From: Eledone cirrhosa
Taxonomy: Eukaryota
Direction of reading: 5' to 3'
Length of the DNA: 64,000 bases
NCBI GenBank assembly: GCA_964016885.1
Contig: OZ024746.1
Location: 18,166,001-18,230,000, forward strand
The notes under the pieces are model-generated. The model ran no database searches. It was not told the DNA's origin and saw nothing but the letters and a program-made list of their open reading frames with translations. Below, in pieces: positions 2,227-63,654 of this stretch; position 1 is the first letter of the stretch; the number at the start of each line of letters is the position of its first letter. Position numbers and translations under genes: made by a program.

Positions 2227-31749
<29,523 letters not shown>

Positions 31750-32006: not shown

Positions 32007-32206
32007 NNNNNNNNNNNNNNNNNNNNNNNNNNNNNNNNNNNNNNNNNNNNNNNNNNNNNNNNNNNNNNNNNNNNNNNNNNNNNNNNNNNNNNNNNNNNNN
32101 NNNNNNNNNNNNNNNNNNNNNNNNNNNNNNNNNNNNNNNNNNNNNNNNNNNNNNNNNNNNNNNNNNNNNNNNNNNNNNNNNNNNNNNNNNNNNNNNNNNN
32201 NNNNNN
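32007..32206. other. Assembly gap (200 N)
   Basis: Run of N; the round length suggests an arbitrary scaffold spacer. Confidence 0.99.
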
Positions 32207-33597: not shown

Positions 33598-33716
33598 CCA
33601 ATTCTCTTCAATCCGATGACACTGGTTTCAGTTCTCTGACATTGACTGAGAGAGTGGCAACTCTACAGAGACAGGTGGAACAAATGGTGGTTTTAGTTAA
33701 TTCTATTCAGACCCAG
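33598..33716 (+). CDS. Mosaic gene exon A, coiled coil (LTERVATLQRQVEQMVVLVNSIQTQ)
   Basis: tag acceptor, gtacag donor; heptad pattern; phase 0 join to the next exon. Confidence 0.7.
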
Positions 33717-36700: not shown

Positions 36701-39049
36701 CCAAGTCTAATATAAAGATGTAGTTGTCCAGTTGTTGGCTGGAGATGTTACACATGCTAGACACATACTTGCATGAAAGATGGGAGGGCAACTGACCTAA
36801 TTGAGCAGTTGAATATTAAAGGTGTCAGCTGATATATGTTGGCATTAAAGGCATCTGCTGAGGTGAGCTTAGATGGACATAGAATTCTGTTGGCTGATGA
36901 GTGTCATGTATTAACAGTGAGTAACATGGCCATGGAAGATATGGTAAAAAGTAGTGAAATCAGATGTAAGAATGTTGACATTACAGATGAGGTGGAGCAA
37001 GATCTTTTCAAGCCATGTTAAAGTTAAAGTCTGTTCTAAGCTGAAGGCTCATTAGGCCAATGCCTATCCCTGGTTTCCTTGGTATTAAGTGACTGAGAGT
37101 ACAAGACTCTCCCAAGCCTGGACGTCAGTCTATTTCAGGTTTAAACCCTCAGCTATTGCTGGTACTCATCTCAGCTGAGTGTACTGGAGCAATGTGAAAT
37201 AAAGTGTTTTGCTCAAGAACATAACTCAGCATCCTGTCCAGGAATTGATCCAATGACATTACGATTGTATGAAGGCACATGGCTTAGTGGTTAGAGCATT
37301 GGGCTTGCAATCGAAAGGTTGTGAGTTTAATCCTTGGACTGGGTGATGTGTTGTTTCCTTGAGCAAGACATTTTATTTTACATTGCTCCAGTTTACTCAG
37401 CTGTAGAAATGAGATGATAGGACTGGGGTCCCTATCATTCCACTGCAAAGTGGTCGTGGAGGTGCCATGGCAAGAAAGCACCCAGCCCACACTGTAAAGT
37501 GGTCGTGTAGGCGCCACAGAAAAAAAGCACCCAGCACTCACTGTAAATGAGGTTGGTGTTAGGAAGTGCATCCAGCTGTAGAAATCAAGCCAGAATCAGT
37601 TCCCGTATGAGCAAGACAAGGTCAGCTGATCGGATACTGCCCACAACAGGACAACCCGTCTTACCCATGCTAGCATGGAAGAATGGACGTAAAACGGTGA
37701 TGATGATGTCAAGCATCCTAACCATTAGACCATGCCAGCATAAAAGATGGGCAATATTGATAGGATAAACATTTGAATTAAGAAACCCAGTTTTAGATAC
37801 TTTCTGCTAAGATGTTAAGAGTTAATGGAGAATTCATGTGATCCATTGAAATAGTGATTTCTATTATGTAAAATAGTAGAATTAAAAGTGTACATGTAAA
37901 CTGAATGGGTGCCAAAACTACCTGGAGACATCCTAGTGAGAAAACTAATATAGCAACTGTAATGAGGTTATTACAGGCTCTGTGGGTGTAGCTAGTGACA
38001 TTTGCTAACAGGGAAAACAGAAGTTAAACCGTGGTGGTGGTGGTGGTGGTGGTGGTGTAAACTTTTATATACATAGAATAAGCAATATATATAAACATTT
38101 TCAACTAGAAAGCTAGTTGCTCACTCTTATCCTAATCTTATTTTATTTGTAGAGCCATGTAGCAGTTCACCTTGTAAACATGGGGGATCATGTGTTGAAG
38201 ATAAAACAGATGGTACATTTAAATGTCTATGTACAGTACCTTTTAGTGGTGCTCTCTGTGAAACTTGGATCAATCCTTCTGTTTGGCCTTCTGACCCTGG
38301 TTACTGTCATCAAACACATGAAGCATATTACTTTGACCGTAATAAAAACCAGTGCCTTATGTTTAATTACACAGGTAAGTAATATTTTTATTGTTATGTT
38401 ATGATATGATATGGTATGATATGATATGGTATGGGCCCATAACTCCTGCTGGACTCATAGGAGCATCCTAATGACAGACATACAGCATTTCTTGGGCATT
38501 TTAAGCATGGCAGAACCCATCTCTCTCCAAGCTTGACTACAGCAGATTTCTTCCAGAGAAGGGTAGAAAGTAAGAAAAAGGAGGTGAGAAAGAAATATTG
38601 AGGAAGAATTGATCCCAGTACTTGACTGGTACTTTATTTATCAACCTCAAAAAGATAAAAGGCAAAGTTGACTTTATTGGGATTTGAACTCAGAGCCGAA
38701 ACAAATACCACAAAACATTCTATCCAACGTTTTAATGACTCTGCCAATTTGATATACAAATTAATTAATGCATAATTTTTCTCAATGTATACACCTCCCA
38801 GTTTCAAACATAACTATGACACTGTCAGCAAAATTTTATTTACTCTATTAGTCATGCCCCCTTTCTTAGATCTAACTTTCCTATTTAATTACATTCTTAA
38901 TCTAATCCAAAATAGATTATATTTTTTTTTATAAATTAGCATTCCAAGGACCATAGTTAACTCATTCCCAAATCATTGAATATATAGATTTTATTATATT
39001 TTACAAATGTATGCACATGCATGTATGTGCAAACACACACACACTCAGA

Positions 39050-39121
<72 letters not shown>

Positions 39122-42100
39122 TGTATTATATTTAGGTTTAAAATTTATATCAATTATGTTTCTCAATATATATGTAAAAAATATTAATAGTTTCTTAATT
39201 GATATATACCCTTTATATACATATATATATATAAAAATGAAATTATTGTGTACAGTGTTAAGGTGCACTACAACTCATCAAAGGTGCATGTATAGTACAT
39301 AGAATAATGTACAAATGTCAGGAAAACTTATATTTATATATATATATTCCATGTGTAAATTACTTTCCAGGTTGCGGTGGTAATGTCAACAATTTCCAAT
39401 CATTGGAAGAATGTCAGAAAAACACCCTGTTTGGAGCTTGCTGTACTTACCAATATTCCATAACAAGAGAAGACATAATAAATGGGAGACAGTCTGTACA
39501 AAAAAATTGTCAGGTTTGTTGACTAAAATCATACAAATATTAACTATAGTTTTAACTATGCTTATCAGTAACAATGTTATATTATACAGTCTAATAGCAT
39601 TGCTATCAATGTACTCAGGCTTATGAAGGTAAATCTAATCCACATGTCACCACCAACATAAATGAAACTAAGGGACAGTCTGCATATTCCATTGTGTTGT
39701 GTTGAAAAGTAGTGAAGAGTGAACATCAGATTAGATTTGATGTAAGATTTGTGAAAGAGTTAGATATTTTACATATTTCATCATCATCAATTAATGTCCA
39801 TTTTCCACGCTAGCATGGGTTAGACGAGTTGTCCCATTTGAGGCATGTTGGGTCAGGTGTCCGTGTCTTATTCATATCTTACTGTAATATTACTACACTT
39901 ATCTATGTTTGAGGAAATAAGTTTTGGATCTCCCCCCCCCCCAAAAAAAAAGTATATATATTTATGTCCAACCCATGCAAGCATGGAAAAGTGGACGTAA
40001 AAATGACGATGATGATGATATACATAATGTCCTATTTATTCTCTTCATTTATTTTTTTGGACACTTTTCCTCAACTACATCACAATTTAGTACACTCTCT
40101 CGCAATCCAGAATACTTCCTGCCTTTGGGCTTCATGTTATAGGACATGTGCAAACTTCTTCTTTGCTTCTGGCCTCTCTTCTAGCTATCTGGTATTGATC
40201 CCTGTTTCTCTATCTGGTATTGCTCCCTGTCTCCCTATCTGGTATTGCTCCCTGTCTCTCTATCTGGTATTGCTCCCTGTCTCTCTATCTGGTATTGCTC
40301 CCTGTCTCCCTTTTTCCTCAGTCTCTCCAGGCTTATCTTTTTGTTTTTATGACTCTATCTACCTTCCCCCACCATGTCACCCTCCATCTTATTGGGACCT
40401 TGTTCCAGCTGTAAACCTAATTTGTGGCTTCCAGCAGGTTGTCCCATAGAAATACCCAGTATATATATAATTATACTAAACATCATTTTAAAGATATATT
40501 TGTAACTGCTTTTTAAACTGAGACTGCTATTATTTAGATTGTATTATATAACCAATGCTGGTGGATTGTGTATCATATAACCAATGCTGGTGGATTGTGT
40601 ATGTATAATAGTTTATTATTTTTAATTCATTTCCAGGTCATGAGTGTTTCTGCTTGTAGAAAACTCCACAAACATTCAGTTAAACCTTATAGAGAAGAAG
40701 AAGTTGTAGGATTCCATCCAGGATTAAGTTGTCAAGATGCTAGATGTCCACGTCCACTTAATAATTCAAAGACGCTTATTGACCAGGAGGAATCTTGTCA
40801 TGTCTTTGGACATGGTAAAATTAAAGTTGGCCAGGAAATTATGATAGGTTGTAGAAACTGCATCTGCATGCCTAGCGAAAAATTGAAGTGCAAGTAAGTG
40901 GCAAAGGAGAGTTTATAATTAATTGATCTTTGAGATAATATATCATCATCATCATCGTTTAACGTCCATGTTCCACGCTTGCATGGGTTTGTATATATAT
41001 ATATATATCATCATCATCATCATCATCACCGTTTTACGTCCGTTCTTCCACGCTAGCATGGGTTAGACGGGTTGTCCTGTTGTGGGCAGTGTCTGGTCGG
41101 CTGACCATGCCTTGCTCATACAGGAACTGATCTGGCTTGATTTCTACAGCTGGATGCCCTTCCTAACACCAACCTCATTTACAGTGAGTGCTGGGTGCTT
41201 TTTCGTGGCGCCTACACGTCCACTTTACAGTGTGGGCTGGGTGCTTTTTTGCCGTGGCACCTCCACGACCACCTTGCGGTGGGGGGGGGGGGCATATTGT
41301 TTATATGCTTCAGCATGTACCCATGGGAGGTCGGGTACCCTGTATTACTGCGTGACGCCAGAAGTCACGGTCGTGTGTCATTGACTTTGAGAGGTGTAGT
41401 TGGGTAAGGTCGGCTCTTATCACCTCATCCCAAGTCATCTTGGGTCTCCCCACTCCGCGGTTTCCATCAACTTCTAGTGCTCTGCACCTTTTTATGCAGC
41501 TGTCATCCTTCATACGCATCACATGTCCATACCAGCGTAACCGCCTCTCCTGCACGCAGCATTTGATTCCTCTTATGCTCAGTCTCTCTCTCAATTCATT
41601 TATGCTTTGTCGTTCACGTATATTACTGTTACACATCCATCGGAGCATGCAGGCTTCGTTTCTCTCTAATCTACGTAAGTCTTCCACCTTCAGCGCCCAG
41701 GTCTCACTACCATGCAACATCGCTGTTCGGATACACGCATCATACAGTCTGCCTTTCATTCTGAGGGAGAAGCCTTTTGCAGCTAGCAGTGGTAGTAGTT
41801 CCCTAAACTTCTTCCATCCCGTTCTTACCCTAGTTATTGTACTTTCTGAGCACCCACCTCCGTTGCTAATTCGGTCACCTAGGTAGCAGAAGCTGTCTAC
41901 TGTTTCTACAGGGCCCTCCCAGAGATTGGTGGTACTTGTTTCCTGTGGCTGTTTGCTTGCTGTTTCAGCACAGCTGCTGCATGTGAATCCTACATTCTTA
42001 ATTAAGCTTCCTGAGATCCCGCTACATCTCTTGTGTACCCATTGTTTGCATTTGGGGCAAAGAATGGAGTTCCTACCTACACCTTTCCTACATACTGAGC

Positions 42101-51100: not shown

Positions 51101-54100
51101 ACAGCTGAAAACTAATGATGGCGATGAATTTTATTCTATCATTAGAAAACAATTCAACAATGAAGATTTAAAAAAAAAAAATTTTTTTTTTTTATTTTTT
51201 TTTTTATTTTAGTATACTCTATGACATTAACACTATTTTCCTTGACTGTGGCAGAGAGACTAATGCATTCATAGACACCCTATACAGAGCTTGTAATAGT
51301 GATACAGCAATCTGTGATTCAAAAGTAGTGTATTTTATTCACAGAGTAAAAGTAATTTTGTTATACTATGGATGGGTCATGCTGTCAATAAAAACACATG
51401 ATTTCACTTGAATTTATTATCATTGGTTTCATTCTATGTTATATAACAATCTCAAATTCCAAATATTTTATTGTAAAGTACATTGTGGGAAAGTCCTTCA
51501 ACAGTTATTCTGCTTCAATTTAAGTATCTATTTGTTCATGTTTTTATGTGATCTATTGACCTATCTATGCTTATGTGATGTGCTAAATTCAAAACATTTT
51601 CTCTCGACACATATTTTGCTCAGAATTGAACATGTAATCCCTCTCATTCAATTGGGTATTTATCATACCCACATAAGTGCCACCCCTACATCCATTCTCA
51701 CTACATAATGGAACATATCAGACACCTCTTAAAACACCTGCATGTCTGACAAAACGCACAGTCACATGACTGCAATCTCGTCCCCACCCAACCTCTATTT
51801 ATAGTTATGCTATTTAATATGCCTTTTGTCTACAGTCAATGACTTCTGACTCAGACAGTCATATTGGTGGTCTCTCCTCTCAGGAGAGGCTTAACTTGAC
51901 AGCCAGTTTTACTCATTTCCATTTACCTTTAATAACAATTTGTTTGTTGCAGGTGTTTATATTTTCCTTTCTTATTCCTTATAGATTATTGTCATCCAAA
52001 TCCATGTCAACACGGTGCTACATGTATCCATTCAGTGTGGCCTACAGAACCTTGGTTAGTTTCCTGTAAATGTCCACCAGGTTATGAAGGGAAACATTGC
52101 CAGTACAAATCAAAAGAAATCTGTTACCTTCCTCTAGAAAAAGGTAAGTTATTTTTTTAGGTTTATTTTTCTCCATTGCTCTATTTTCGATACATCTAAA
52201 AAAATTTGAATACTATCAAATATTTTAATTTTTTAAATTTATATTTTCTTGTATCTATTTATGGTTATGTGATTAAAGTGTTCATTTTAGAATTCCTGTT
52301 TCTGATTCAATTTCATTGCAAAGAACCTGAGATCAATATCTTTTACTGTAGTCTCAGAGTACCCAAGCTTTGTGGGTAAAATTGGGTAGCTGAAAATTGT
52401 ACAGAATCCAGTTGGGTGTACATTAGGGTGCCCAAGCATTGTGGGTGAAATTGGGTAGATGTAAATTGTGTTATATCTTGTTGGGTGGACATGACCAAAA
52501 CAGTTGAGGTCAACCAGGGAGAGGTTCCTCCAACAGAAGGGAGAAGGCCCTGGATTGGATTAGATTGGAATAAATAGATATAAAAAATAAACTTGAAATA
52601 TATTTTTATTATTACAGGTTCCTGCTCAAGAAATGTGAGCCGTTGGTACTATGACTTCCAACAGTTAAAGTGTCTTCAATTTGATTATTCTGGTTGTGGT
52701 GGAAATGCCAACTTATTTGATTCCATTGAAGATTGTCAGCAAAAATGTGTTGTTGGTGCTTGTTGTTATAGACAACAACTTAACACAGGAGTTACCATTG
52801 GCTTTGGTTCTGATGGCTTTGATAGGTAAGACTAATTACTTAACTGTTTCATCATCATCAACATCATGTTTGTTACTGAAATTAGAGTAGAATAGACTTA
52901 AGACTCCACAGTTAGTCACTGTCTCAGTTTTAACATATATATGGCTTGCATTCTTTACGATCTGAGTTCAAATCCCGCCGAGGTTGACTTTGCCTTTCAT
53001 CCTTACGGGGTCGATAAAATAAAGTACCAGTAATGCACTGGGTAATTGCTGGCCTTGTGCCTAAAGTAGAAACAATTATTGACTATTCTAAAATAAAGTA
53101 CCAGTAATGCACTGGATAATTGCTGACCTTGTGCCTAAAGTAGAAACAATTGACTATTCTCAGTCAAAAGCTCATTAGGCTGGTACTTATCTCTGGTTTG
53201 CTTGGCCCTAAAGTACAAGACTTCCTGGACAGGACACTAGTTTATCTCAAGATTAACTCCCCAGCTACTCCTGGTACTCATCTCAGCTGACTGTACTGTA
53301 GCAACATGAAATAAACTATTTTGTTCAAGAATACAATGCCGTCTAGGAATCACACTGATGACATCACAATCCTACGTCAAGCACCCTAACTCAGAGAGCA
53401 GAGAGCCCAAACAAATATCGCAAAGCATTCTATGCAATGTTCTAACGACTCTGCCAATTCACCACACTATACAACTATATAACCTCACCTAAAACATTGT
53501 TTTTACACCTATCCAAAAAAATTTTAAATAATAACCTTTCTACAAAAATGTTGACTTTCAGGTATGGGTTTAATGATAAAGGACATAACCAGCTAAGAAA
53601 GATGTTCAATGCAAAAACTGGAATGAAAATGGGTGTCAACAGATTCAAGAAAAGTGGATATGATTGGCAAGGTTTGTGACTTTATTATATATATATGTAA
53701 ACCCAATGAAATTATTTTCTAAGATTTCATTATCATGTTTTTTTGCAATGATGATCCTGAATTTTATTTAAGAAAAGTTTTATATTTATTTCTCACCTTT
53801 ATAAAGATATTTCAAAGTGGTAAGTATATTGTAAGATCATCGGATAATATATTGATATTGTGTATGAGATATTGATCATGAACAATTTTATGATAATTAA
53901 AAGATTAATCAATAATATGGTCGTTTTGGTGCCATGATAAAAAGCACCCAGTCCACTCTGTAAAGTGGTTCTTTTGGTGCCACTATAAAAAGCACGCAGT
54001 CCACTCTGTAAAGTGGTTCTTTTGGTGCCACTATAAAAAGTACCTAGTCCACACTGTCAAGAAGTTGTTTTGGTGCCAAGATAAAAATCGACCCCAGTAC

Positions 54101-57100
54101 GTTGCTGGTGCTTTATTTTATTGACCCCTTAGTGAAAGGCAAAGCTAACCTTGGCAGAATTTGAACGCAGAATGTAAGGCCTATTGTCCGACGCTCTACT
54201 TATTCTACTACCAATCCACCATCCTCAATACAAAATAATATTTTCTCTGATATAGGTTATGACAAAACCGGATTTAACTCTGTTGGTTATAACAGAATGG
54301 GTTACAATTCTGAAGGTTATGATCCGTTTGGGTTCAACATGACAGGGTACAGCAGAGAAGGTGAGTTTGATGGTATGATCGACTATAATGATGATGGCTA
54401 TGATCAAGAAGGATATAACAGGTGAGATATTTCATTGGTTGAATTATTTTCAGTGAGAAATATCATTACTTTTAATATCATCGATTTTAAAGAATAAAGC
54501 ACTTACAATGTTTTGGGTTTTTTTTCTAACTTTGGCTCAAGAATATAAATTTCTAGTAGAATGGTATATATAGGTAATTGAAGTGACTCCAATATATTAC
54601 TGGTACTGGCAGGATTTGTAAATCAGAATGTAAGGAGATGTAATTAATGGTATGGTAGGGTCCCATAACTCCTGATGGAGTTGTAAGGACGTATGGCATT
54701 TCTTGGGCATTTTAAACCTGGTAGAGCCCATCTTCTCTCCAGGTCTGAACACAGCAGATTTCTTCCAGAGAAGGATAGAAAGTGAGAGAAAGGAATATAT
54801 TTTTAATCAATGAAAGGAATAAATATTATTTTCATCACTGATCACGTATTTTTGTATATTATTGACTTTTATAATGTTAGTGTTTAACTTGGAGGAGCAA
54901 ATAAATATGTGGTAGAATGGGCTCATGTGAAATAAAATTGTTATAAATAAATTTAGCAAGTCCATTCTTTTTTTCTTTTTATAGAGCTGGCTTCAATTGT
55001 GAAGGAATTAACCGAAAAGGTTTGGATATCTTTGAACGATATGCTGGCTTTAAGTACACTTGCATAGAAAGTACAAGAAGAAGATGTCAACGCATGGAAA
55101 CTGAAGATAATATTGAAATTATTAGATTTTCCCCAGGAAAAAAATGCAAAGATATCGTTTGTAAACCAAACTGTTTGTGTTGGTTTAATAACCAATTCCA
55201 CAGGATGTTGGATAATTTCAATGTTGGTTGTGAGAAATTTCAATGTCATTTGGGAGGCTTTTCAGAAATGAATTCTTGCCAAAAACATTTTCAGCGGAAA
55301 GAGATTCGTGATATGAGTTTTGAGGAAATGAAACGCTATCAACTTGTTATCCAAAATCTACAACACGAAAAAAGAAATGGCAAATCTATATGGTATGAAT
55401 TTGCTGAAATATATTCAGAGTATATTCCTCAATTTTCAGGAAATCCTATATTTCTACCATGGCATCGGTATTTTCTGTTTATGGTTGAAAAGTCAATGCA
55501 AGATATTGAATGTGGTGTTGTCATTCCATACTATGACTGGACTCTTGATGTAGGTGTCTTGAATAAATCTGTTATTTGGTCATCAAAATATTTTGGCAGT
55601 AATGGAGAGAATGGAACAGGCTGTGTTAGATATCATCCATTTAAGTCTTATCACCCGCCATATTGGGCTCCTTGTCTCCGTAGACGATTCAATTCCTCAA
55701 TACATCTTCCAGACGCCATTCATGTTTTTCTGGCTTTACAGGAAAGTACATTTCATGACTTTTCTGCTTACATGGAATCAGTGTTACATCTTTTCCAGAT
55801 GTGGGTTGGAGGTCATATGAATTCACCTCTTAGTGCATATGACCCTCTGTTCTATTCACATATAGCCTTCATTGATAAATTGTGGGATGATTGGCAGAGG
55901 AATCAGAAAAAAGGTTTGCTAAAGTTTCCTCCTAATTTCCGATATATTCCTATGGAACCTTTCAAGGTTTCCCCTGATGATGTACTAGATTGCAAAAAAC
56001 AAATGTGTATCACCTATTTGGATTTACCATTTGGATCACCATGTAACCAGACAAAATTGAAGACTTATGGATATGACAGTAATAGTTATAATCGTCATGG
56101 TTTTGATAAAAATGGTTATGATAAAGATGGATTTAATATACATGGAATAAACATTGATGGCTATATTGATCTTAGAGGAATATATAACAATGATGGATTT
56201 GACAAAGAAGGCTTTTCTAGACAAGGTTATGATAGTATGGGCTATGACCGACATCTCTTTTACAGAGATGGTTACAATTCTGATGGTTTTGATGCTACTG
56301 GATATGATAGATCTGGTCATAATAGATATGGTTTCAGCAGAATCAAGTCAAATATTTATGGAGAACACATGTCTACATTTAGAAAGAATGAATTCAATGA
56401 ACTTGGATTAAATAATTTGGGTTTTAATAACAAAGGATTTGACATTTTTGGTTTCAACAAAGATGGCTTCAACCGCTTTGGTTGTAATTTTTATTCCAAT
56501 GGACCATTTTATATAATAATGTACCAGTCTCTTAAAAATAAACTTACTGAGATAAAATCTATGCAATCTTTGATAAATATACCAAGGCTGTGTCCTCAAG
56601 TGTCACAGTTTCCTCAGTGGATGTATAAAGTTTATTGGCTGAGCCGTCAAAAAAACATTCCTGAGGTTTTAGCCATTATGGCTTTGGACAGGCTTAAAAA
56701 TCCATTTTCATTTGAAGATGTCTTTGATAAACTTTGGATTCCTCTGATTCCAGATCAAAGGTAAACATTTAATTATTTTTTTATTAATTTTTTTTTTTTA
56801 ATTAATTTGGTATGTGATTATTGATAGTTATTGTTATTTATAGTATATATGAGTCAGATCAGGCTTCTGCCTGCTACTGGTACCATGTAATCCAGTACAA
56901 CCTGCTTTGTGGTTGGTGATTAAACCTGCTCCTCCACCAAACCAGGGTCTAGTGGAGGAGGGTAAGTTGAACCCCCAGCAACAGGGTTGTTAAAAGGGTG
57001 GATGAACTCCTCAGTCAACAGCCATCCACCCCAACTATGGGTTAAATAGCCTCACCAAACTGCAATTGGCCAAGCGTGGTGAGTACAGCTATACCCCTGA

Positions 57101-60100
57101 CATGACCAAACCAAATAGAAAGTAGTGGAAGTCAACTAGGGAGGGGTTCCTCCAACAGAAGTGAGAAGGCCCTGGATTGAATTTGAAAGTGTAATAACCA
57201 TTTAGCATGGTTAAGAAATTCACTTCGCAATCATCCCACAGCATGTCATCTTGGGCAAGTGTCATTCACCATAGTCTTAGATCAACCCATATCTTGTGAG
57301 GAAGTTTATCAGATGGACTGTTCCTGTAATTCAAAGAGTCAGCTTTGTCACACAGTGTCATGCTGAATCTCCCGAGTTGTACTTGTTTGTTGTAGCATGA
57401 AGTGATGTTACCACGGGGAAGATGGTTTTCCCATACCACATAAACAAGACACCACTCATTTTTGTTTTTATTTATAACGTAATTTACTTTGAAATCATGT
57501 GCAGCAATAAACAACGAAAAAAGAATATATGTATTGTGTCATGTGGGCAAGTATATCAATATCTGACCTGTGTTGGTAAAATGTTCTCAACTAGCGATCC
57601 CAGCAAGACTGCCTAGCGAGTGTGTGACTGTGTATATGGCTGCACTGCAAGGCTGAAACAACAAATTGTCCTTCTGAAAGTCGAAAAGCAGACTCTTTTA
57701 AGATGGGAAAATTATCTATCATTCTTCCTGCATACGATTGGTGTTGTTAATCCTACAACCAGAGAACGTTATCTAAGTTATGAAGCTCTGAGGTCGTAGG
57801 CCAGTTTTAAGGTGGTTGTGTATGGCAGACTAAGAAAAACCATCATGGGAAGATGCTGAGATTTCACTAAATATATATATATATAGTGAAGGCACATGGC
57901 TTAGTGGTTAGAACATTGGGCTTGCAATCGAAAGTTCAATTCTCGGACCGGGTGATGAGTTGTTACCTTGAGCAAGACACTTTATTTCACATTGCTCCAG
58001 TTTACTCAGCTGTAGAAATGAGATGATAGGACTGGGGTCCCTATCATTCCACTGCAAAGTGGTCATGGAGGTGCCATGGCAAAAAAGCACCCAGCCCCCC
58101 ACACTGTAAAAGTGGACGTGTAGGCGCCACGGAAAAAAAGCACCCAGCATTCACTGTAAATGAGGTTGGTGTTAAGAAGGGCATCCAGCTGTAGAAATCA
58201 AGTCAGAATCAGTTCCTGTATGAGGAAGACAAGGTCAGCCGACCGGACACTGCCCACAACAGGACAACCCGTCTAACCCATGCTAGCTTGGAAGAACGGA
58301 CGTAAAACGATGATGATGATGTGTATATATATGATCTTATTTTTAGGAGATTTGAGTATTTAAAAGAAGCATCAACATTGTTTAACTATAAAAAATAGTC
58401 TTATAAGTTATACCCTGAATATGGAAAATCTTTTGTACAGTACTGATGTCATGTTTGACTGATTAATGATAAAATGAAACTGACAAAGAATGTTTACTCT
58501 CAACAAATCCACATGTCTAAATTTGGTGGGGTGTGACAGTACTAAAAATGAATGAAATTATAATTAAGAGAAAAATGAAATTAAAGCAATTATTTTCATT
58601 AATAATTATGTTGTACTTTTCAGGTTTTGTTTGGAAACAAACTTTTTCTCCAAATGTCCACTTGGTCATGCTCCAGTAAAATGTTCATCAGATTTATGCT
58701 TCAATACAATCTGTCCTGGTAATAGCTATTCATTTTTTATCATTTCTTTTTTAAGTCAGCATTTTATTTCAAAATATTGTCCTTTATAACATTTCAATTT
58801 CCAATTTTGAAAATACCTCATATAACTTTAACTTAAGATTTGCTATATTCATATATTTTACATATATATATATATATATATATATATAAAGAGAATGTTG
58901 TCATTGTTTGCTTGAAGCATTGTGAAATATGAAATGTTGTAGTTAGGAAGCTACTACATTGTAAATATTAAGGCAACAAAACTGGGAGAAGATGAAGAAT
59001 AAAAGAAAAGAATCAGAGATAATGTTACTTTAGAAATATTTACGAACTCCCATATATTTCGGATGTACCATCCATTATCAAGGTGATTGTACTTGGTGAT
59101 AAATTTCAAAGTGAAACAATAAAGCATTACATGAAAATGTCTAACTCTTGTAAGTGTCCCCTGACCACCATCAAGCGATCATACAAACCTCCTCCTCCTT
59201 TCAGGCCCAGAAAAAGAGCAAGACAGCCATGAAACCCTTTTCCTATCAGGTCCAGAATTTAAGAGTTGCTACTATCCATGCTGGCATGATGAAAGGTAGG
59301 TGTGGAGAGATTGTGCAGATGCTAGAGCAGAGGCGTGTAGATGTATGCTGTGTGCAAGAAATAAGATGGAGAAGAGCTTCAGTCAGACTCATCACAGACA
59401 AGGAACATAGGTACAAATTTTCTGTGTGGGTAGCAGTGGTGGTGTGGGTGGTGTGGGTAGCAGTGGTGGTGTGGGTGGTGTAGGAATAATATTAACAGAG
59501 AAATGAGTAGACCAGGTAACTGAGATAGTTAGAATGTGCAATAGGATAATTAAATTTAGACTTTCCTTGAACACATCAATAGCTATTATAATCTTTGCAT
59601 ATGCTTCACAGGCTAGACTTGGAGGTGAACAAAAGAACCACATTGATGACAAACAATGGTGACCTCCTTATTGTGGCTGGGGATTTCAATGGATATGTTC
59701 GGCAAAACTGTAATGGCTTGTCCAGTGTAGATGGAGGCCATTGATATGATACAAGAAATTAAGAGAGATCAAGGGTCCTGGGTTTTTTGTGATGCATGTG
59801 ATTTAACACTAATTTCAGGAAACTAGCTAGCCACCTGATTACTTAACAATCAGAAGAGACAGGCAAGCCCAATAGATTTCATTTTTACCAGGAAACAAGA
59901 TAGATGAATGGTAATATATGCCAAGTCCTTCCCTGGTGAAGAATGTACCTCCCAACACAGATTAGTTATCAGTGACTTTAGGATAAGAATCTGATGTGGA
60001 GAAGAATGCCATAGAAGGTGAAAGAATTCTCACTTGGCAACAAATTCAGAGAAATCCTACAATATTAAAGAAGAGGAAACAGAGTCCTATAATATAGAGG

Positions 60101-62288
60101 AAAATTGAGAATTCCTAAAAGACTGCTTGCTGAAGGTCATGGATCAGGTCTGTGGCTGGGTCAAGGTCCTTGCAAGACAGAAAGTGACATGATGGTGGTG
60201 GAATAAGAGGGTAGCCAACCATAAAAGAAAAAAGATAGGCTTAAAAAGACTGGAAAAAAGGAGGAAGCAGAGTGCAATACAAGCTAGACATTAGGTATAC
60301 TTAACAGCAGGGAGAAAGAGAAAAGGAGTTTGCACATGTTCTATGTGAGATTCAGAGGCATGAAGTGTTCTAGATTGTGAGGCAGAATGTTTGAGAAAAT
60401 CGAGGCATTGAGGAAAAATGTATTTAAAATGACAGTGGAATACTTTCCCTGACTAATGCCAAAAAGAAAAAGGCACAGAAGACTTATTACAAGTGATCGT
60501 TGAACAAAGAGAATAAATAGGAGAGTGAGGGTCTACTCTAAACAGAAGCAACTGGGGGACCAGTCATAAAAGTTGATGGCATTACATTAGACAAAGAGGT
60601 TAAGGACATAATGCCATGGAAGGAAGTTGGTGGAATGATAAGGTAATGCCATAAAAACCAAAAGACAAGCCTGGAGGAGAGACTGAAAGAATAGATAGCT
60701 AGAAAGGAGGTGAGGTGCCAGGTATACCTAGCAAGGGGGAAAAGATATTTACACAGGTTCTGCATTGTGAAGATCAGAGGCATGAAGTATTCCAGATTGC
60801 AAAACAGTATACTAAAGAGAATCATGATGTGGTTTAGGAAAAGTGTGTCCAAAATGATAATGGAGGACTTGTTCTGTCTGACCCCCCCCCCTCCTGCCAC
60901 ACACAAAAATAGAGGCGTAGAAGACTTATGAGAGATTACTGAATGAAGAGAATAAATGGGACAGTGAAGGCCCACTCCATGTAGAACTAGCCAAAAAAGT
61001 TGACAGCAGTGAGATAGATAAAGCAATTAAGAATATGAAGGTAGGAAGGAAGCCGAGCTGCTAAACACTCTGATATGGTAGGTTACAAGCTACTCAGGGA
61101 AACTATAACCCACCCAGAACTTCTACCTATGCTTCTTGTCTCTCCATCTTGTCTCTTGTACACAGCACACATCAACACATCTCTGCTGTAGCATCTCCAC
61201 AATCTCCCTGGACCTACGTTTCATCGTGCTGACATTGATGTGTGTGTGTATTTGTGTGTTTTTTTTTTTTTTGTGTGCATATCAAAGAATAAATTTGAAG
61301 ATAGCTTTACAAAGATAGAAGATGTGTTAACTAACCTAGATCAAAGTGATGTTTTTTCTGGGATACTTTAAACTCCCTAACTTCCAATGATCTAAAGGAA
61401 TGTCCACTACTGAGCAAAGACAATCAGAATCCCTGCTAGAGGTTACAAGAATGTTGTTCATGAAACTAGTAGTACTACATCCAACATGAGAGAATTAAAG
61501 AATAAATCACCTAGGAAGATTTCCATCTTGTTTGTTTTTCCTGAGATTTATTTCATTTACCACAATTATGAGCAAGATCAAATACTATTCATAATTTTAA
61601 TGCTGCTTGCAATATCTGATTTTATCACATCCATAAATTTTAAAGAATTGATTGATTATTAATCTTCATCATCATCATTGTCATCATCATCACCATCATC
61701 ATAATCACCACCACCACCACCACCATCATCATCACCAACACCAACAACAACACCAACAACACCAACAACACCAACAACACCAACAACACCAACAACACCA
61801 ACAACACCAACAACACCAACAACACCAACAACACCAACAACACCAACACCAACAACACCAACACCAACAACACCAACACCAACAACACCAACACCAACAA
61901 CACCAACACCAACAACACCAACACCAACAACACCAACACCAACAACACCAACACCAACAACACCAACACCAACAACACCAACAACACCACCACCAACAAC
62001 ACCACCAACAACACCACCAACAACACCACCAACAACACCACCACCACCAACACCACCACCAACACCACCACCAACACCACCACCAACACCACCACCAACA
62101 CCACCACCACCACCACCACCACCACCACCAACACCACCACCAACACCACCACCAACACCACCACCAACACCACCACCAACACCACCACCAACACCACCAC
62201 CAACACCACCACCAACAACACCACCAACAACACCACCAACAACACCACCAACAACACCACCAACAACACCACCAACAACAACACCACC

Positions 62289-62320
<32 letters not shown>

Positions 62321-63654
62321 CACCAACACCACTTTTTCTATACTGGCATAAATTGTAGAAGTCTTTTTGAGGCAATATTCTATGACTGAATATGCTCTTC
62401 CTAATGCCAACCCGTAGTTATTTTTAATTATCATACTTTTTACACTGGTCTTTACTCATTGAATTGCTAAGCTGCAGGACACAAACAATTGTCACTGAAT
62501 GCTTTTTGTTGTTGTTTTTATGTTAACATAAAGACATACATTGAGACAAACATAATCATACACAGACACATATCCGTAGACATATATATGTGTGTGTGTG
62601 TATGTATATATATATTTATAAGAAAGCTTGCCAAATAAAGAAATTGATAGTTAAAACTATTACCCGAAATGCATGTGTGTATCTGCGTGTGTGTGTGTAT
62701 CTATATGTGTGTATGTGTTTTCTAAATTTTGTAAAAGAGGCACAGGAAGAAATTTTTATCTGGGATCAATTTTCAACATTAATTAAATTAAAATAAATTA
62801 AAATGTTTTGTTATTTCTAATATTTTTCTAAATTCTCAAAATTTCTTTTTTATTTGTAGGTGTATCAGATGTAATATGCCAACTGAACTATTGTGGAACA
62901 TGTACAGTGGAATGGTATAATGCTCACTCTGGTGAAGTTCAAGAATGTCAAGGTAATAGCTTTCTGAAATTGGGAAAATTGTTTAAAGCAATTTAATAAA
63001 TTTCAAATATAATATGATTTGCATATGTTGAGAAATAAACTTTACATTAAATTTATATATTCTATATAAGGATACAATGAGTCGTAGGAACATCAGATAG
63101 AAAGCTTTGCAGTATTCATTTTGGTTCTCTGCTCTCTGAGTTCAAATCCCGCCAAGGTTAACTTTGTCTTTCATTCTTTTGAAATTTCTAAAACTGTTTA
63201 GAACTGGTATTGTACTAGTTTTGATTCTTTCACTATATCTCTTTCTCACTTCCTCTCTCTATCCTTCTTTGGAAGAAATTTGCCATATTCAGACCTGGAG
63301 AGGTTTTTAAATGCCCTAGAAACCCCATCTATCAACTACGACTCTCTCAGGAGTTATGGGACCATACTGCATACAATGTTAGATTAAGGAATCCTCTGAT
63401 TGATATATTCAGCCATTGCAATACTTGTAGAAATAATAGAATTATGTTCCCTGTAATTATTACCTACAAGAATTAATAGTAATAAAAATAAATTTACACA
63501 AAAAAAAACTATGCTTCAAATATATGTGAATAGATCATCTTTATGCCAGTCTCTATTTTGATGAATCTTTCCAGGTTGTAAAGATGAATACAATCGGCAT
63601 AAACCTGAAAGATCATCATGGATCAACTCTGAGTGCCAAAATTGTACATGTCAG
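33598..63654 (+). CDS. Large mosaic, probably secreted protein: coiled coil-VWC-2x[EGF-Kunitz-GACC-VWC-like-tyrosinase-like-GYD repeats-Cys-rich]-VWC; partial gene span, 19 exons
   Basis: All 19 exons have AG/GT ends and mutually compatible phases and total 5195 nt of open frame. Recognisable EGF, Kunitz (YxGCGGNxNxF), VWC and tyrosinase (RKEIR, LPWHR, PY.D, VGG.M, DP.F) motifs. Confidence 0.88.
34561..34692 (+). CDS. Mosaic gene exon B, coiled coil end plus VWC-like (ERIEQLETCEC...WQPDTCTRCHCQ)
   Basis: WxPDxCxxCxC VWC motif; tttag acceptor, gtatgt donor. Confidence 0.88.
35416..35464 (+). CDS. Mosaic gene exon C (EGKPECKVRADIPGCS)
   Basis: ttag acceptor, gtaagg donor; completes the VWC GxxxC motif and bridges phase 0 to phase 1. 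Confidence 0.75.
35971..36306 (-). mobile_element. tRNA-head SINE with RTE-derived tail (internally deleted copy)
   Basis: Reverse complement of the 37271-37708 family. Confidence 0.85.
37271..37708 (+). mobile_element. Full-length tRNA-derived SINE with RTE 3' tail and (GAT)n end
   Basis: Head ggcacatggcttagtggttagagcattgggcttgcaatc...; the 3' approximately 270 nt match the LINE 3' UTR at 41008-41280. Confidence 0.88.
38153..38374 (+). CDS. Mosaic gene exon D, EGF1 plus N-half of Kunitz 1
   Basis: PCSSSPCKHGGSC...FKCLC...FSGALCE, then PSDPGYC...YYFD....CLMFNYTG. Confidence 0.92.
39371..39513 (+). CDS. Mosaic gene exon E, Kunitz 1 C-half plus GACC motif
   Basis: GCGGNVNNFQSLEECQKNTLFGACC. 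Confidence 0.92.
40185..40310. repeat. 25-bp tandem repeat, about 5 copies
   Basis: ctatctggtattgctccctgtctct is repeated. Confidence 0.85.
40637..40893 (+). CDS. Mosaic gene exon F, end of GACC domain plus VWC-like
   Basis: ...GFHPGLSCQDARC...SCHVFG...VGQEIMIGCRNCIC; cag acceptor, gtaagt donor. Confidence 0.85.
41008..44430 (-). mobile_element. Near-intact RTE-clade LINE (APE endonuclease + RT + PHD-like finger), with a single frameshift at about 42528
   Basis: APE motifs (TINVGS, VQETRW, AYAPQ, GDFNGHVG), RT motifs (NYRGIKL, QFGFVPG, GVHQGSVLSPLLF, LLYADDL), RRLRWYGHV and a (GAT)n tail. Confidence 0.95.
45775..46137 (+). CDS. Mosaic gene exon G, tyrosinase-like domain 1 CuA half
   Basis: RKEIRD...HGMHSHGGVFYLPWHR...LPYFDF...FFGGDG. 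Confidence 0.93.
47015..47559 (+). CDS. Mosaic gene exon H, tyrosinase-like domain 1 CuB half plus first GYD repeats
   Basis: CLKRNF...IHSFVGGDM...SAYDPVFYIIHTYIDRLY...GYNQFGYDPQGFDRRGYN. Confidence 0.93.
47690..48376 (+). mobile_element. 5'-truncated copy of the same RTE LINE
   Basis: Peptide RNEACMLRWMCNSNI.ERQSINELRERLSIRGIKCCVQERRLRWYGHV is near-identical to the 41310-42458 ORF; same 3' UTR and (GAT)n. Confidence 0.93.
48769..48957 (+). CDS. Mosaic gene exon I, G-(Y/F)-(D/N)-x-x repeats
   Basis: GVNREGFDTEGYDLEGYNRYGFDHDGYDRKGFN; phase 1-1. Confidence 0.9.
49438..49680 (+). CDS. Mosaic gene exon J, end of repeats plus linker (CNYSFNGPF...)
   Basis: Paralogous to CNFYSNGPF in exon P; cag acceptor, gtaagt donor. 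Confidence 0.9.
49902..50225. repeat. Imperfect inverted repeats of about 70 bp enclosing about 185 bp of RT-like sequence
   Basis: ttactagctctatac...gttgatctccaacttgcactt / aagtgcaagtcagagatcaac...gtatagagctagtaa. Confidence 0.75.
50479..50724 (+). CDS. Mosaic gene exon K, Cys-rich module (CRNNLCLDAECPSYPQANCYVDVCNEC..W...C)
   Basis: Paralogous to exons Q+R; cag acceptor, gtaagt donor. Confidence 0.9.
51985..52143 (+). CDS. Mosaic gene exon L, EGF2 plus start of Kunitz 2
   Basis: YCHPNPCQHGATC...CKCPPGYEGKHC...EICYLPLEKG. Confidence 0.92.
52618..52825 (+). CDS. Mosaic gene exon M, Kunitz 2 plus GACC
   Basis: GSCSRNVSRWYYD....[32 protein letters not shown]. Confidence 0.93.
53562..53671 (+). 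CDS. Mosaic gene exon N, GYD-like insert
   Basis: YGFNDKGHNQ...SGYDWQG; bridges phase 2 to phase 1. Confidence 0.82.
54256..54421 (+). CDS. Mosaic gene exon O, G-(Y/F)-(D/N)-x-x repeats
   Basis: GYDKTGFNSVGYNRMGYNSEGYDPFGFNMTGYSREG...GYDQEGYN. Confidence 0.9.
54985..56760 (+). CDS. Mosaic gene exon P (1776 nt): GACC end, VWC-like, tyrosinase-like domain 2, GYD repeats, linker
   Basis: The 580-aa ORF in the track; RKEIRD, FLPWHR, IPYYDW, WVGGHM, SAYDPLF; tag acceptor, gtaaac donor. Confidence 0.95.
56860..57180 (-). repeat. Interspersed repeat family (aatccagggccttctcac...; other copies at about 9771-9995, 30331-30745 and 34778-35090)
   Basis: Shared motifs ccccaactatgggttaaatagcctcacca and gtgagaaggccctggattg; class not determined. 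Confidence 0.65.
57888..58321 (+). mobile_element. Full-length tRNA-derived SINE with RTE tail
   Basis: Same family as 37271-37708; flanked by (TA)n. Confidence 0.88.
58624..58718 (+). CDS. Mosaic gene exon Q, Cys-rich module 2 first half (FCLETNFFSKCPLGHAPVKCSSDLCFNTICP)
   Basis: cag acceptor, gtaata donor; paralogous to exon K. Confidence 0.87.
59150..61238 (+). mobile_element. Degenerate, rearranged RTE LINE 5' half (APE region)
   Basis: LRVATIHAGMMKGRCGEIVQMLEQRRVDVCCVQEIRWR resembles the 42500-44428 N-terminus; many stops; internal duplication at about 60600-60960; short inverted piece at about 61100-61238. Confidence 0.82.
61667..62331. repeat. Compound (CAT/CAC/CAA)n trinucleotide repeat in an intron
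   Basis: CAN triplets organised into 9-, 15- and 12-nt higher-order blocks. Confidence 0.95.
62860..62952 (+). CDS. Mosaic gene exon R, Cys-rich module 2 second half (VICQLNYCGTCTVEWY...ECQ)
   Basis: tag acceptor, gtaata donor; paralogous to exon K. Confidence 0.87.
63575..63654 (+). CDS. Mosaic gene exon S, VWC start (GCKDEYNRHKPERSSWINSECQNCTCQ); gene continues beyond the window
   Basis: W...CxxCxC motif; cag acceptor, gtaaga donor. Confidence 0.85.

What the first reader, a model, noticed from the sequence alone, without database searches (positions are those of the whole stretch)
33598..63654. Giant mosaic protein coupling tandem tyrosinase-like folds to Tyr/Gly pentapeptide repeats, Kunitz, EGF and VWC modules
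Seen: 19 exons splice into about 1730 uninterrupted codons. The order is coiled coil, VWC-like, then two copies of EGF-Kunitz-GACC-VWC-like-tyrosinase-like-(G-Y/F-D/N-x-x)n-linker-Cys module, then VWC, with many Cys and N-x-S/T sites. Known: type-3 copper tyrosinases oxidise Tyr to DOPA/quinone for sclerotisation and pigmentation, and Kunitz, EGF and VWC are extracellular modules. I know of no characterised protein with this architecture. Inference: a secreted, oligomerising matrix protein carrying an oxidase-fold domain, its own Tyr-rich potential cross-linking substrate and protease-inhibitor-type domains in one chain. Possible roles include egg coat or cement, skin or cuticle matrix, and wound sealing.
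Basis: partly seen in the sequence, partly recalled or inferred. Interest (0 to 1): 0.9.

Follow-up and report, generated by a model that had tools for sequence, protein, structure and literature searches.

The report
Kielin protein carrying dead tyrosinase cassettes
This is the middle of an octopod gene for kielin/chordin-like protein, a secreted growth-factor regulator known from frogs and mammals, and here it carries two copies of an ancient ~800-residue insert whose tyrosinase-shaped cores lack the full copper-binding site, so they likely act as binding or anchoring parts rather than as enzymes.

Summary
The 19 exons are real (1,731 codons, no stop) but are only the middle of a ~3,870-residue gene: N-terminal exons lie on an unplaced contig, and 33 more exons (VWC array, VWD, C8, TIL) follow. 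It is the octopod kielin/chordin-like protein (KCP), 84% identical to annotated Octopus KCP. Exons 4-18 are two copies of a phase-1/phase-1 cassette (EGF-Kunitz-GACC-FnI-like-tyrosinase fold-G[YF][DN]xx repeats-Cys module), predicted to fold as one compact body. The tyrosinase domains are the gene's best-conserved parts, yet 0 of 70 named animal copies keep six copper histidines (window: 4 and 1); 5 of 7 choanoflagellate copies, in membrane-anchored proteins, keep all six. The duplication predates the protostome-deuterostome split. Sharks, coelacanth, salamanders and sturgeons keep one copy; sturgeon and paddlefish isoform models differ by exactly this 892-residue cassette; 79 of 89 vertebrate KCP models listed lack it. 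Best reading: a BMP-modulating matrix protein with a captured, catalytically dead oxidase module, likely an anchor or scaffold. The self-cross-linking oxidase idea is not supported. The gene name is known and one paper notes the fusion in passing; I found no description of the pseudo-enzyme, its origin or its splicing.

The parts
33598..33716 (+). Exon 1 in the window: linker and first half of the coiled coil; begins in phase 1 and continues from three upstream exons (signal peptide, LamG/TSPN-like domain) on unplaced contig G000:C1088
34561..35464 (+). Exons 2-3 (34561-34692, 35416-35464): end of coiled coil (R-I-E-Q-L-E motif) and truncated first VWC; intron 3 is phase 1, the left border of the cassette
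38153..40893 (+). Exons 4-6 (38153-38374, 39371-39513, 40637-40893): cassette 1 EGF, degenerate Kunitz, GACC module, FnI/VWC-like module
45775..47559 (+). Exons 7-8 (45775-46137, 47015-47559): tyrosinase-fold domain D1 (aa 313-548), copper positions Y351/H359/H368/A471/H475/H497 = 4 of 6 His; start of repeats
48769..50724 (+). Exons 9-11 (48769-48957, 49438-49680, 50479-50724): G[YF][DN]xx repeats, helical region, Cys module; intron 11 is phase 1, the border between the two cassettes
51985..54421 (+). Exons 12-15 (51985-52143, 52618-52825, 53562-53671, 54256-54421): cassette 2 EGF, Kunitz, GACC module with an inserted repeat tract
54985..56760 (+). Exon 16: rest of GACC module, FnI/VWC-like module, tyrosinase-fold domain D2 (about 55292-56020; copper positions Y1193/S1201/H1210/L1317/Q1321/I1343 = 1 of 6 His), repeats (about 56066-56485), helical region
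58624..62952 (+). Exons 17-18 (58624-58718, 62860-62952): Cys module of cassette 2; intron 18 is phase 1, the right border of the cassette
63575..63654 (+). Exon 19: first VWC of the C-terminal array; 33 further exons follow beyond the window (to about 34 kb downstream) encoding the VWC array, VWD, C8 and TIL, ending in a stop

Best explanation
The window holds the middle of the octopod kielin/chordin-like (KCP) gene, whose product carries two tandem copies of an ancient cassette built round a tyrosinase fold that lacks the complete copper site; the protein is likely a secreted BMP/TGF-beta-ligand modulator, and the cassette likely a non-catalytic binding and anchoring module that holds it in extracellular matrix. 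Shown: exon chain, KCP backbone, copper-site loss, strong conservation of the dead domains, D1/D2 duplication older than the protostome-deuterostome split, intact sites in most choanoflagellate relatives, and vertebrate isoform models with and without the cassette. Predicted: each cassette folds as one compact body. Inferred: an intact, membrane-anchored oxidase module of a pre-animal ancestor was shuffled as a phase-1 block behind the first VWC of KCP, lost catalysis, duplicated, and was kept as an interaction surface; the VWC array binds BMP-type ligands as in vertebrate KCP; including or skipping the cassette would switch between a matrix-bound long form and a more mobile short form; the coiled coil would trimerise the chain.
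For: Backbone: the N-terminal domain of 12 invertebrate proteins matches that of 12 vertebrate KCPs (hhalign 99.7%, E 8.6e-26, 190 columns); coiled coil, half VWC, VWC array, VWD, C8, TIL in the same order; RefSeq/GenBank name the octopus, shark, coelacanth, newt, amphioxus, crinoid, brachiopod and spider proteins kielin/chordin-like. Dead site: of 70 named animal domains none has His at B1, none a full CuA or CuB trio; counts of His are 0:10, 1:14, 2:23, 3:22, 4:1; three paralogous type-3 copper domains of this genome score 6 of 6; the window's fourth His (B3 of D1) is Gln in three Octopus species and Argonauta. A review states the six His are perfectly conserved and single replacements abolish or severely cut activity (PMC11608171, passages). 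Selection: D1 91.9% and D2 90.5% identical to O. bimaculoides against 77.9% for the VWC tail and 70.9% for VWD-end; cassette 2 is 40% identical between octopus and shark over 862 aa. Fold kept: Z 26.7, rmsd 1.9 A over 231 residues to Streptomyces tyrosinase; pTM 0.87 for a whole 734-aa cassette and 0.86 for exon 16. History: D1 clade 100/99, D2 clade 98/97, each with protostomes and deuterostomes; animal copies together 96/87. Modularity: introns 3, 11 and 18 are all phase 1; Acipenser ruthenus X1 and X2 differ by one 892-aa block with these same borders, and Polyodon X1/X2 show the same junction. KCP function: secreted, augments BMP and inhibits TGF-beta signalling (PMC6750614, passages).
Against: No ligand of the cassette is known; anchoring is inferred, not tested. 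BMP modulation is shown only for vertebrate forms, and the Xenopus form lacks the cassette. The VWD alone does not settle orthology: Xenopus kielin VWD scores better against another octopod gene, a probable BMPER (159 bits), than against octopus KCP (127 bits), and the VWD tree does not separate them. Both domains keep conserved His at non-canonical places (D1: 83% and 67%; D2: 97%, 95%, 79% of rows), so a different metal site is not excluded. Splicing rests on public gene models; I saw no reads. Two of seven choanoflagellate domains are also degenerate (4 and 3 His), so loss may have happened more than once. My spacing rule scored one algal control 5 of 6 because of an insertion.
Confidence: 0.62

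Rival explanations
1. The long form is mainly a structural matrix glycoprotein (skin, cartilage, shell or egg-case matrix): the rigid cassettes and the VWC/VWD tail polymerise or bind matrix, and BMP modulation is a side role or a later speciality of the short vertebrate form.
For: Size (~3,870 aa) and mucin/VWF-like tail; kielin/chordin-like VWC proteins were the most abundant class in the Argonaut egg-case matrix (bioRxiv 2021.07.10.451900, one passage) and are listed in a sea-star skeletal proteome (PMC5460417, table passage).
Against: Those proteomic entries are VWC-only contigs or name matches, not shown to be this gene; the backbone is shared with the BMP-modulating vertebrate protein. 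This rival shares the dead-enzyme reading and differs only in the main job.
Confidence: 0.17
2. The domains are not tyrosinases but bind one metal ion (Cu or Zn) or a phenolic ligand through the remaining and new histidines, acting as a sensor, copper sink or weak redox site.
For: A3, B2 and B3 His are kept in many D1 copies and A3 and B2 in most vertebrate D2 copies; extra conserved His in MxHxMH (D1) and HPF, GGHM, SH (D2); the jawed-vertebrate D2 pattern (R/K)(N/T/C)HSHY is steady from sharks to salamanders.
Against: The remaining canonical His are lost freely: 10 of 70 domains have none, including the amphioxus D1 (its only copy in the models seen) and several bivalve D2; Tyr, Trp, Phe or Ile often fill A1 and B3.
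Confidence: 0.15
3. One reading: an active oxidase that converts its own Tyr-rich repeats to DOPA/quinone and cross-links itself into a coat or cement.
For: True tyrosinase fold next to Tyr-containing repeats; the arrangement with six His exists in 5 of 7 choanoflagellate domains, so it may describe the ancestor.
Against: 4 and 1 of 6 His in the window, 0 of 70 complete in animals; the aromatic repeat position is Tyr 22, Phe 17 times; the same repeat lies in bacterial UvrD-type helicases and large bacterial proteins without a tyrosinase domain; the repeats are predicted ordered (pLDDT mostly 70-90).
Confidence: 0.04
4. The architecture is an annotation artefact: a nested or neighbouring gene merged with KCP.
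For: No transcript was laid here; some fish and shark models give the cassette without the tail (Metynnis 1,218 aa, Chiloscyllium 1,098 aa, Osmerus 688 aa).
Against: The same insertion point and open frame recur in molluscs, a brachiopod, chelicerates, echinoderms, amphioxus, tunicates and vertebrates; borders are in phase; all octopus isoforms that have the N-terminus include both cassettes.
Confidence: 0.02

Closest known systems
Kielin/chordin-like protein (Xenopus kielin, mammalian KCP)
   Same: Signal peptide, LamG/TSPN-like domain, coiled coil, truncated first VWC, long VWC array, VWD, C8, TIL; same junction residues.
   Different: Two ~740-870-aa cassettes are inserted after the first VWC; Xenopus kielin and 79 of the 89 KCP models listed have no tyrosinase domain. 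The octopod VWD lacks the GDPH motif that other KCPs keep. No mammalian KCP row was among those listed; its cassette-free architecture is recalled, not tested.
Type-3 copper proteins (tyrosinase, catechol oxidase, molluscan haemocyanin; Pfam PF00264)
   Same: Fold (Z 26-27 to bacterial tyrosinases) and the PWHR, GGxM and DPxF motifs.
   Different: Copper His incomplete in every animal copy; embedded in a composite module; forms its own clade with choanoflagellate proteins, apart from this genome's other type-3 copper domains in a tree with few outgroups. The 2013 classification (PMC3658974, passages) requires both His triads and, in the passages seen, does not list this architecture.
Choanoflagellate Kunitz-tyrosinase membrane proteins (Salpingoeca rosetta, S. 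urceolata, Choanoeca perplexa, Hartaetosiga balthica; uncharacterised)
   Same: Kunitz-GACC-repeats-FnI-like-tyrosinase-repeats-Cys module in the same order; 30% identity over about 850 aa, E 5e-118.
   Different: Mostly six His intact, a C-terminal hydrophobic segment, Kazal domains, no KCP backbone.
BMPER / Crossveinless-2
   Same: VWC repeats plus VWD-C8-TIL tail; BMP modulator.
   Different: Five VWCs (PMC2944808, abstract start in listing), no cassette; a separate probable BMPER gene exists in this genome (L035; name from resemblance, not from a call).
Hexamerins / cryptocyanins (copper-free descendants of arthropod haemocyanin; recalled)
   Same: A type-3 copper fold kept after loss of copper histidines.
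   Different: Arthropod beta-subclass storage proteins, only weak fold matches here (Z 6-8); not part of a signalling or matrix mosaic.

Membership tests
Kielin/chordin-like protein (KCP) | Signal peptide and N-terminal LamG/TSPN-like domain | tested here: met
   Hydrophobic leader and domain exons on G000:C1088; hhalign 99.7% to vertebrate KCP N-terminus. Pfam itself gives no hit on the octopod exon and only E 0.13-0.19 Laminin_G_1 on sturgeon; the LamG label follows PMC6750614 (passage).
Kielin/chordin-like protein (KCP) | Coiled coil followed by a truncated VWC | tested here: met
   same L-E-x-C-E-C junction as Xenopus, lizard, zebrafish relative and lungfish.
Kielin/chordin-like protein (KCP) | Long VWC array then VWD, C8, TIL | tested here: met
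   33 downstream exons, open to the stop; 25 VWC stretches and one VWD in the O. vulgaris orthologue.
Kielin/chordin-like protein (KCP) | VWD phylogeny separating it from BMPER | tested here: inconclusive
   Tree groups all KCPs with the probable octopod BMPER (SH-aLRT 92); pairwise scores favour BMPER for the fast-changing octopus VWD.
Kielin/chordin-like protein (KCP) | Binds BMP and modulates BMP/TGF-beta signalling | not testable with these tools
   Known for vertebrate forms only (PMC6750614 passages; PMC10315795 abstract start in listing).
Type-3 copper oxidase (tyrosinase) | Tyrosinase four-helix fold | tested here: met
   Pfam PF00264 over cut-off; predicted models match 1wx2 at Z 26.6-26.7, rmsd 1.8-1.9 A.
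Type-3 copper oxidase (tyrosinase) | CuA triad H-(n)-H-(8)-H | tested here: not met
   D1 Y/H/H, D2 Y/S/H; 0 of 70 animal domains complete.
Type-3 copper oxidase (tyrosinase) | CuB triad H-(3)-H-(n)-H | tested here: not met
   D1 A/H/H, D2 L/Q/I; B1 is His in 0 of 70 animal domains.
Type-3 copper oxidase (tyrosinase) | Copper content and phenol oxidase activity | not testable with these tools
   Needs purified protein.
Kunitz serine-protease inhibitor | Kunitz fold with six Cys and a conserved P1 residue | tested here: inconclusive
   Fold met (Z about 10, rmsd 1.0 A). The window's first Kunitz lacks the first and last Cys; the P1 position varies (H, S, D, G, T, K) among orthologues, which argues against a conserved inhibitory role but does not exclude one.
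DOPA-type adhesive or cement precursor | Tyr-rich repeats in which Tyr is not replaceable | tested here: not met
   Tyr 22: Phe 17 at the aromatic position in the window; similar mixes in shark, newt, tunicate and bacterial copies.

The most novel reading that the evidence does not exclude
The ancestral bilaterian KCP captured a copper-oxidase surface module from a pre-animal ancestor, killed its catalysis and kept it for over 550 million years as a new class of matrix- or ligand-binding pseudo-enzyme; in vertebrates this module is a splice-controlled switch on a BMP regulator, retained in sharks, sturgeons, coelacanth and salamanders and skipped or lost in frogs, most teleosts and amniotes, so the textbook KCP is a truncated derivative whose missing half changes morphogen range.
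Probability: 0.35. Interest if true: 0.82.

Novelty: new variant of a known kind. Interest (0 to 1): 0.62.

Why it matters
KCP is studied as a BMP enhancer in kidney, heart and bone from forms that lack this cassette. If the long form is ancestral and alternately spliced, work on KCP in non-model vertebrates and invertebrates has a missing 900-1,600 residues to account for, and there is a direct test (long versus short isoform) of how a morphogen regulator is tethered. It also gives a deeply conserved alpha-type tyrosinase pseudo-enzyme with an apparently intact choanoflagellate counterpart, a clean pair for studying how an oxidase becomes a binding module, and it warns that tyrosinase counts in mollusc and other genomes include this dead member.

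Tried and rejected
Expression: the run search listed four holders, none on record as RNA; no reads were laid, so splicing in this organism is not shown by RNA. Complex prediction: no verdict, neither for a coiled-coil trimer nor for cassette with BMP2/4; trimerisation rests on a motif recalled from the coiled-coil literature and seen in 20 of 24 rows. ESM Atlas gave no usable match for the Cys module or the repeat region; Pfam has no family for the GACC module, Cys module or repeats in the window (bacterial copies hit PF25296 Decapeptide below cut-off); fold searches listed no match for the repeats, which is inconclusive as the tyrosinase domain filled the lists. The top fold hit 9pgz is an engineered tyrosinase fusion and adds nothing. 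VWD phylogeny could not separate KCP from BMPER. Fusion with the upstream HECT ligase was rejected: the KCP 5' exons lie on C1088 and join in phase. Loss of the cassette in frogs, amniotes and most teleosts is not claimed as shown: Pygocentrus and Arapaima have cassette-free models while Metynnis, Serrasalmus and a second Arapaima entry carry it, so skipping or missed annotation can look like loss. No cnidarian, sponge or insect was named among the hits I could name (20 of the 150 rows were looked up); absence is not shown. Literature: nine searches found one passing remark (PMC11667028) and no study of the cassette; the original kielin and KCP papers were not held; supplements of PMC11667028 and PMC3658974 were not read and may list these sequences. 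The scan's own findings gave nothing.
Full report
Observation. Nineteen exons between 33598 and 63654 have canonical AG/GT ends and splice to 1,731 codons without a stop. Pfam finds Tyrosinase, EGF, Kunitz and a weak VWC on the expected exons. The pentapeptide G[YF][DN] occurs 40 times against at most 8 in 1,000 shuffles. The window lies at G000:C6:18166001-18230000 of a 3.0-Gb genome; the product is 84% identical to Octopus proteins and 78% to Argonauta, so the organism is an octopod.

The gene is longer. Downstream stretches hold 33 more collinear exons for a VWC array, VWD, C8 and TIL, with an open frame to a stop about 34 kb past the window; the 52 exons on C6 give 3,556 aa, 80% identical to O. 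bimaculoides KCP (a few downstream borders were picked by score and may be off by some codons). The start is missing at the 200-N gap at 32007-32206; three exons for signal peptide and N-terminal domain lie on the unplaced contig C1088 and end in phase 1, fitting the window's first exon. The whole protein is about 3,870 aa, as in the public models (3,875-3,880 aa).

It is KCP. The N-terminal domain of 12 invertebrate proteins aligns with that of 12 vertebrate KCPs at 99.7% probability; coiled coil, truncated VWC and tail match in order, and the junction L-E-x-C-x-C is shared with Xenopus kielin. Public names agree. Against this, the VWD alone does not separate KCP from a probable BMPER in this genome. 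I take the shared N-terminus and the shared cassette with shark, coelacanth and newt KCP as decisive.

The cassette. Exons 4-11 and 12-18 are two copies of one unit: EGF, Kunitz, a GACC disulfide module, an FnI/VWC-like module, a tyrosinase fold, repeats, a helical part and a Cys module. Introns 3, 11 and 18 are all phase 1. AlphaFold2 gives pTM 0.87 for the whole first unit of O. vulgaris (734 aa, 24-row alignment) and 0.86 for window exon 16 (591 aa, 38 rows), which predicts one compact body. The core matches bacterial tyrosinase (Z 26.7, rmsd 1.9 A, 231 residues; Z 26.6), the Kunitz matches at Z about 10, the small beta module only at Z about 4. The repeats are modelled as ordered loops with periodic beta-bridges and had no listed match.

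The oxidase site is incomplete. Using the spacing H-(n)-H-(8)-H and H-(3)-H-(n)-H (PMC3658974, passages), window D1 reads Y/H/H/A/H/H and D2 Y/S/H/L/Q/I. Among 70 named animal domains (isoforms and close species included; unnamed rows left out of this count) none has B1 His or a full triad, and the window's D1 with four is the maximum. Three paralogous type-3 copper domains of the same genome score six; one algal control scored five because an insertion shifts its A2. Single His replacements abolish or severely cut activity in characterised enzymes (PMC11608171, passages). Yet D1 and D2 are the best-conserved parts of the gene among octopods (92% and 91% against 78% and 71% for the tail). Some non-canonical His are conserved, so a single-metal site remains possible; I could not measure it as coordinates were not supplied. 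The repeats use Tyr and Phe about equally and recur in bacterial helicases, which fits a structural repeat rather than a DOPA precursor.

History. The same unit, in the same order, occurs in membrane-anchored proteins of four choanoflagellate species; 5 of 7 named domains keep six His, two are degenerate. In a tree of 65 domains (four near-duplicate rows left out) the animal copies form one group (96/87) split into D1 (100/99) and D2 (98/97), each with protostomes and deuterostomes. Molluscs, Lingula, arachnids, Ptychodera and tunicates have both; the amphioxus and crinoid models have D1 only; hagfish and jawed vertebrates D2 only. Outgroups were few, so the root is not tested. Acipenser ruthenus isoforms X1 and X2, on contigs of the same length, are identical but for one 892-aa block with the borders of window exons 4-18; Polyodon shows the same pair. 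Of the best 120 rows (of 1,175), 31 FCGBP/zonadhesin rows were dropped; of 89 KCP rows 10 have the domain (sharks, rays, sturgeon, coelacanth, newt, Umbra), and 70 of the 80 with a recognisable N-terminal anchor run straight from the half VWC into the array. No mammalian row was listed. These are gene models, so skipping, missed exons and true loss cannot be told apart.

Mechanism. I read the protein as a secreted KCP whose VWC array likely binds BMP-type ligands, as reported for vertebrate KCP (PMC6750614, passages), and whose cassettes are likely dead-enzyme binding modules that anchor or organise it in matrix; inclusion or skipping would tune retention and range (0.62). Rivals: mainly structural matrix protein (0.17; kielin-like VWC proteins in Argonaut egg case and sea-star skeleton, not shown to be this gene), single-metal or phenol sensor (0.15), active self-cross-linking oxidase (0.04), merged genes (0.02).

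Novelty. The gene is annotated as KCP in public databases, and PMC11667028 (one passage) notes very long spiralian tyrosinase sequences with a kielin/chordin-like domain as outliers. Nine searches in an open-access library found no account of the cassette, its lost copper site, its choanoflagellate counterpart or its splicing; subscription papers and supplements were not seen. PMC9395347 and PMC10244343 (passages) concern other tyrosinases. Verdict: new variant of a known kind, interest 0.62.

Noticed in passing
window 2190-31700, + strand: C2-WW-HECT ubiquitin ligase gene (WWP1/Itch/Su(dx)-like by recalled resemblance; Pfam HECT at 31540-31749; other exons seen). Its last exons are missing at the N gap 32007-32206.
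   Followed up: partly
window 41313-44431, - strand: Near full-length LINE retrotransposon (endonuclease, reverse transcriptase, PHD-like finger) inside KCP intron 6, its frame broken once near 42503-42530; about 600-bp 3' fragments at 90-98% identity recur nearby and on C1088.
   Followed up: partly
window 17758-23621 and 27079-28454: Tandem arrays: 23-bp unit x255 and 43-bp unit x32, in introns of the HECT gene.
   Followed up: no
G000:C1088:11193-19696 (L033): Unplaced 20-kb contig carrying the three 5' exons of this KCP gene; it likely belongs in the gap at window 32007-32206.
   Followed up: yes
L013 (first VWD exon; G000:C6 about 18256570-18256690): Octopod KCP VWD has GNTH/GNNH/GKTH where gastropod, brachiopod and vertebrate KCPs have GDPH, the motif known (recalled) for self-cleavage.
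   Followed up: partly
L035 (G000:C26:6109191-6109643): Single-exon VWD with GDPH, probably the octopod BMPER/Crossveinless-2.
   Followed up: partly
P0011-P0052 and P0124-P0153 (database proteins): The G[YF][DN]xx repeat forms long tracts in bacterial UvrD-type helicases and in 2,000-aa proteins of Syntrophomonadaceae and relatives, with only a below-cut-off Pfam hit.
   Followed up: partly
P0017, P0117, P0338, P0344 (Salpingoeca rosetta): At least four paralogues of the Kunitz-tyrosinase protein, three on one contig; three keep six His and one has four. They look like an undescribed family of choanoflagellate surface oxidases.
   Followed up: partly
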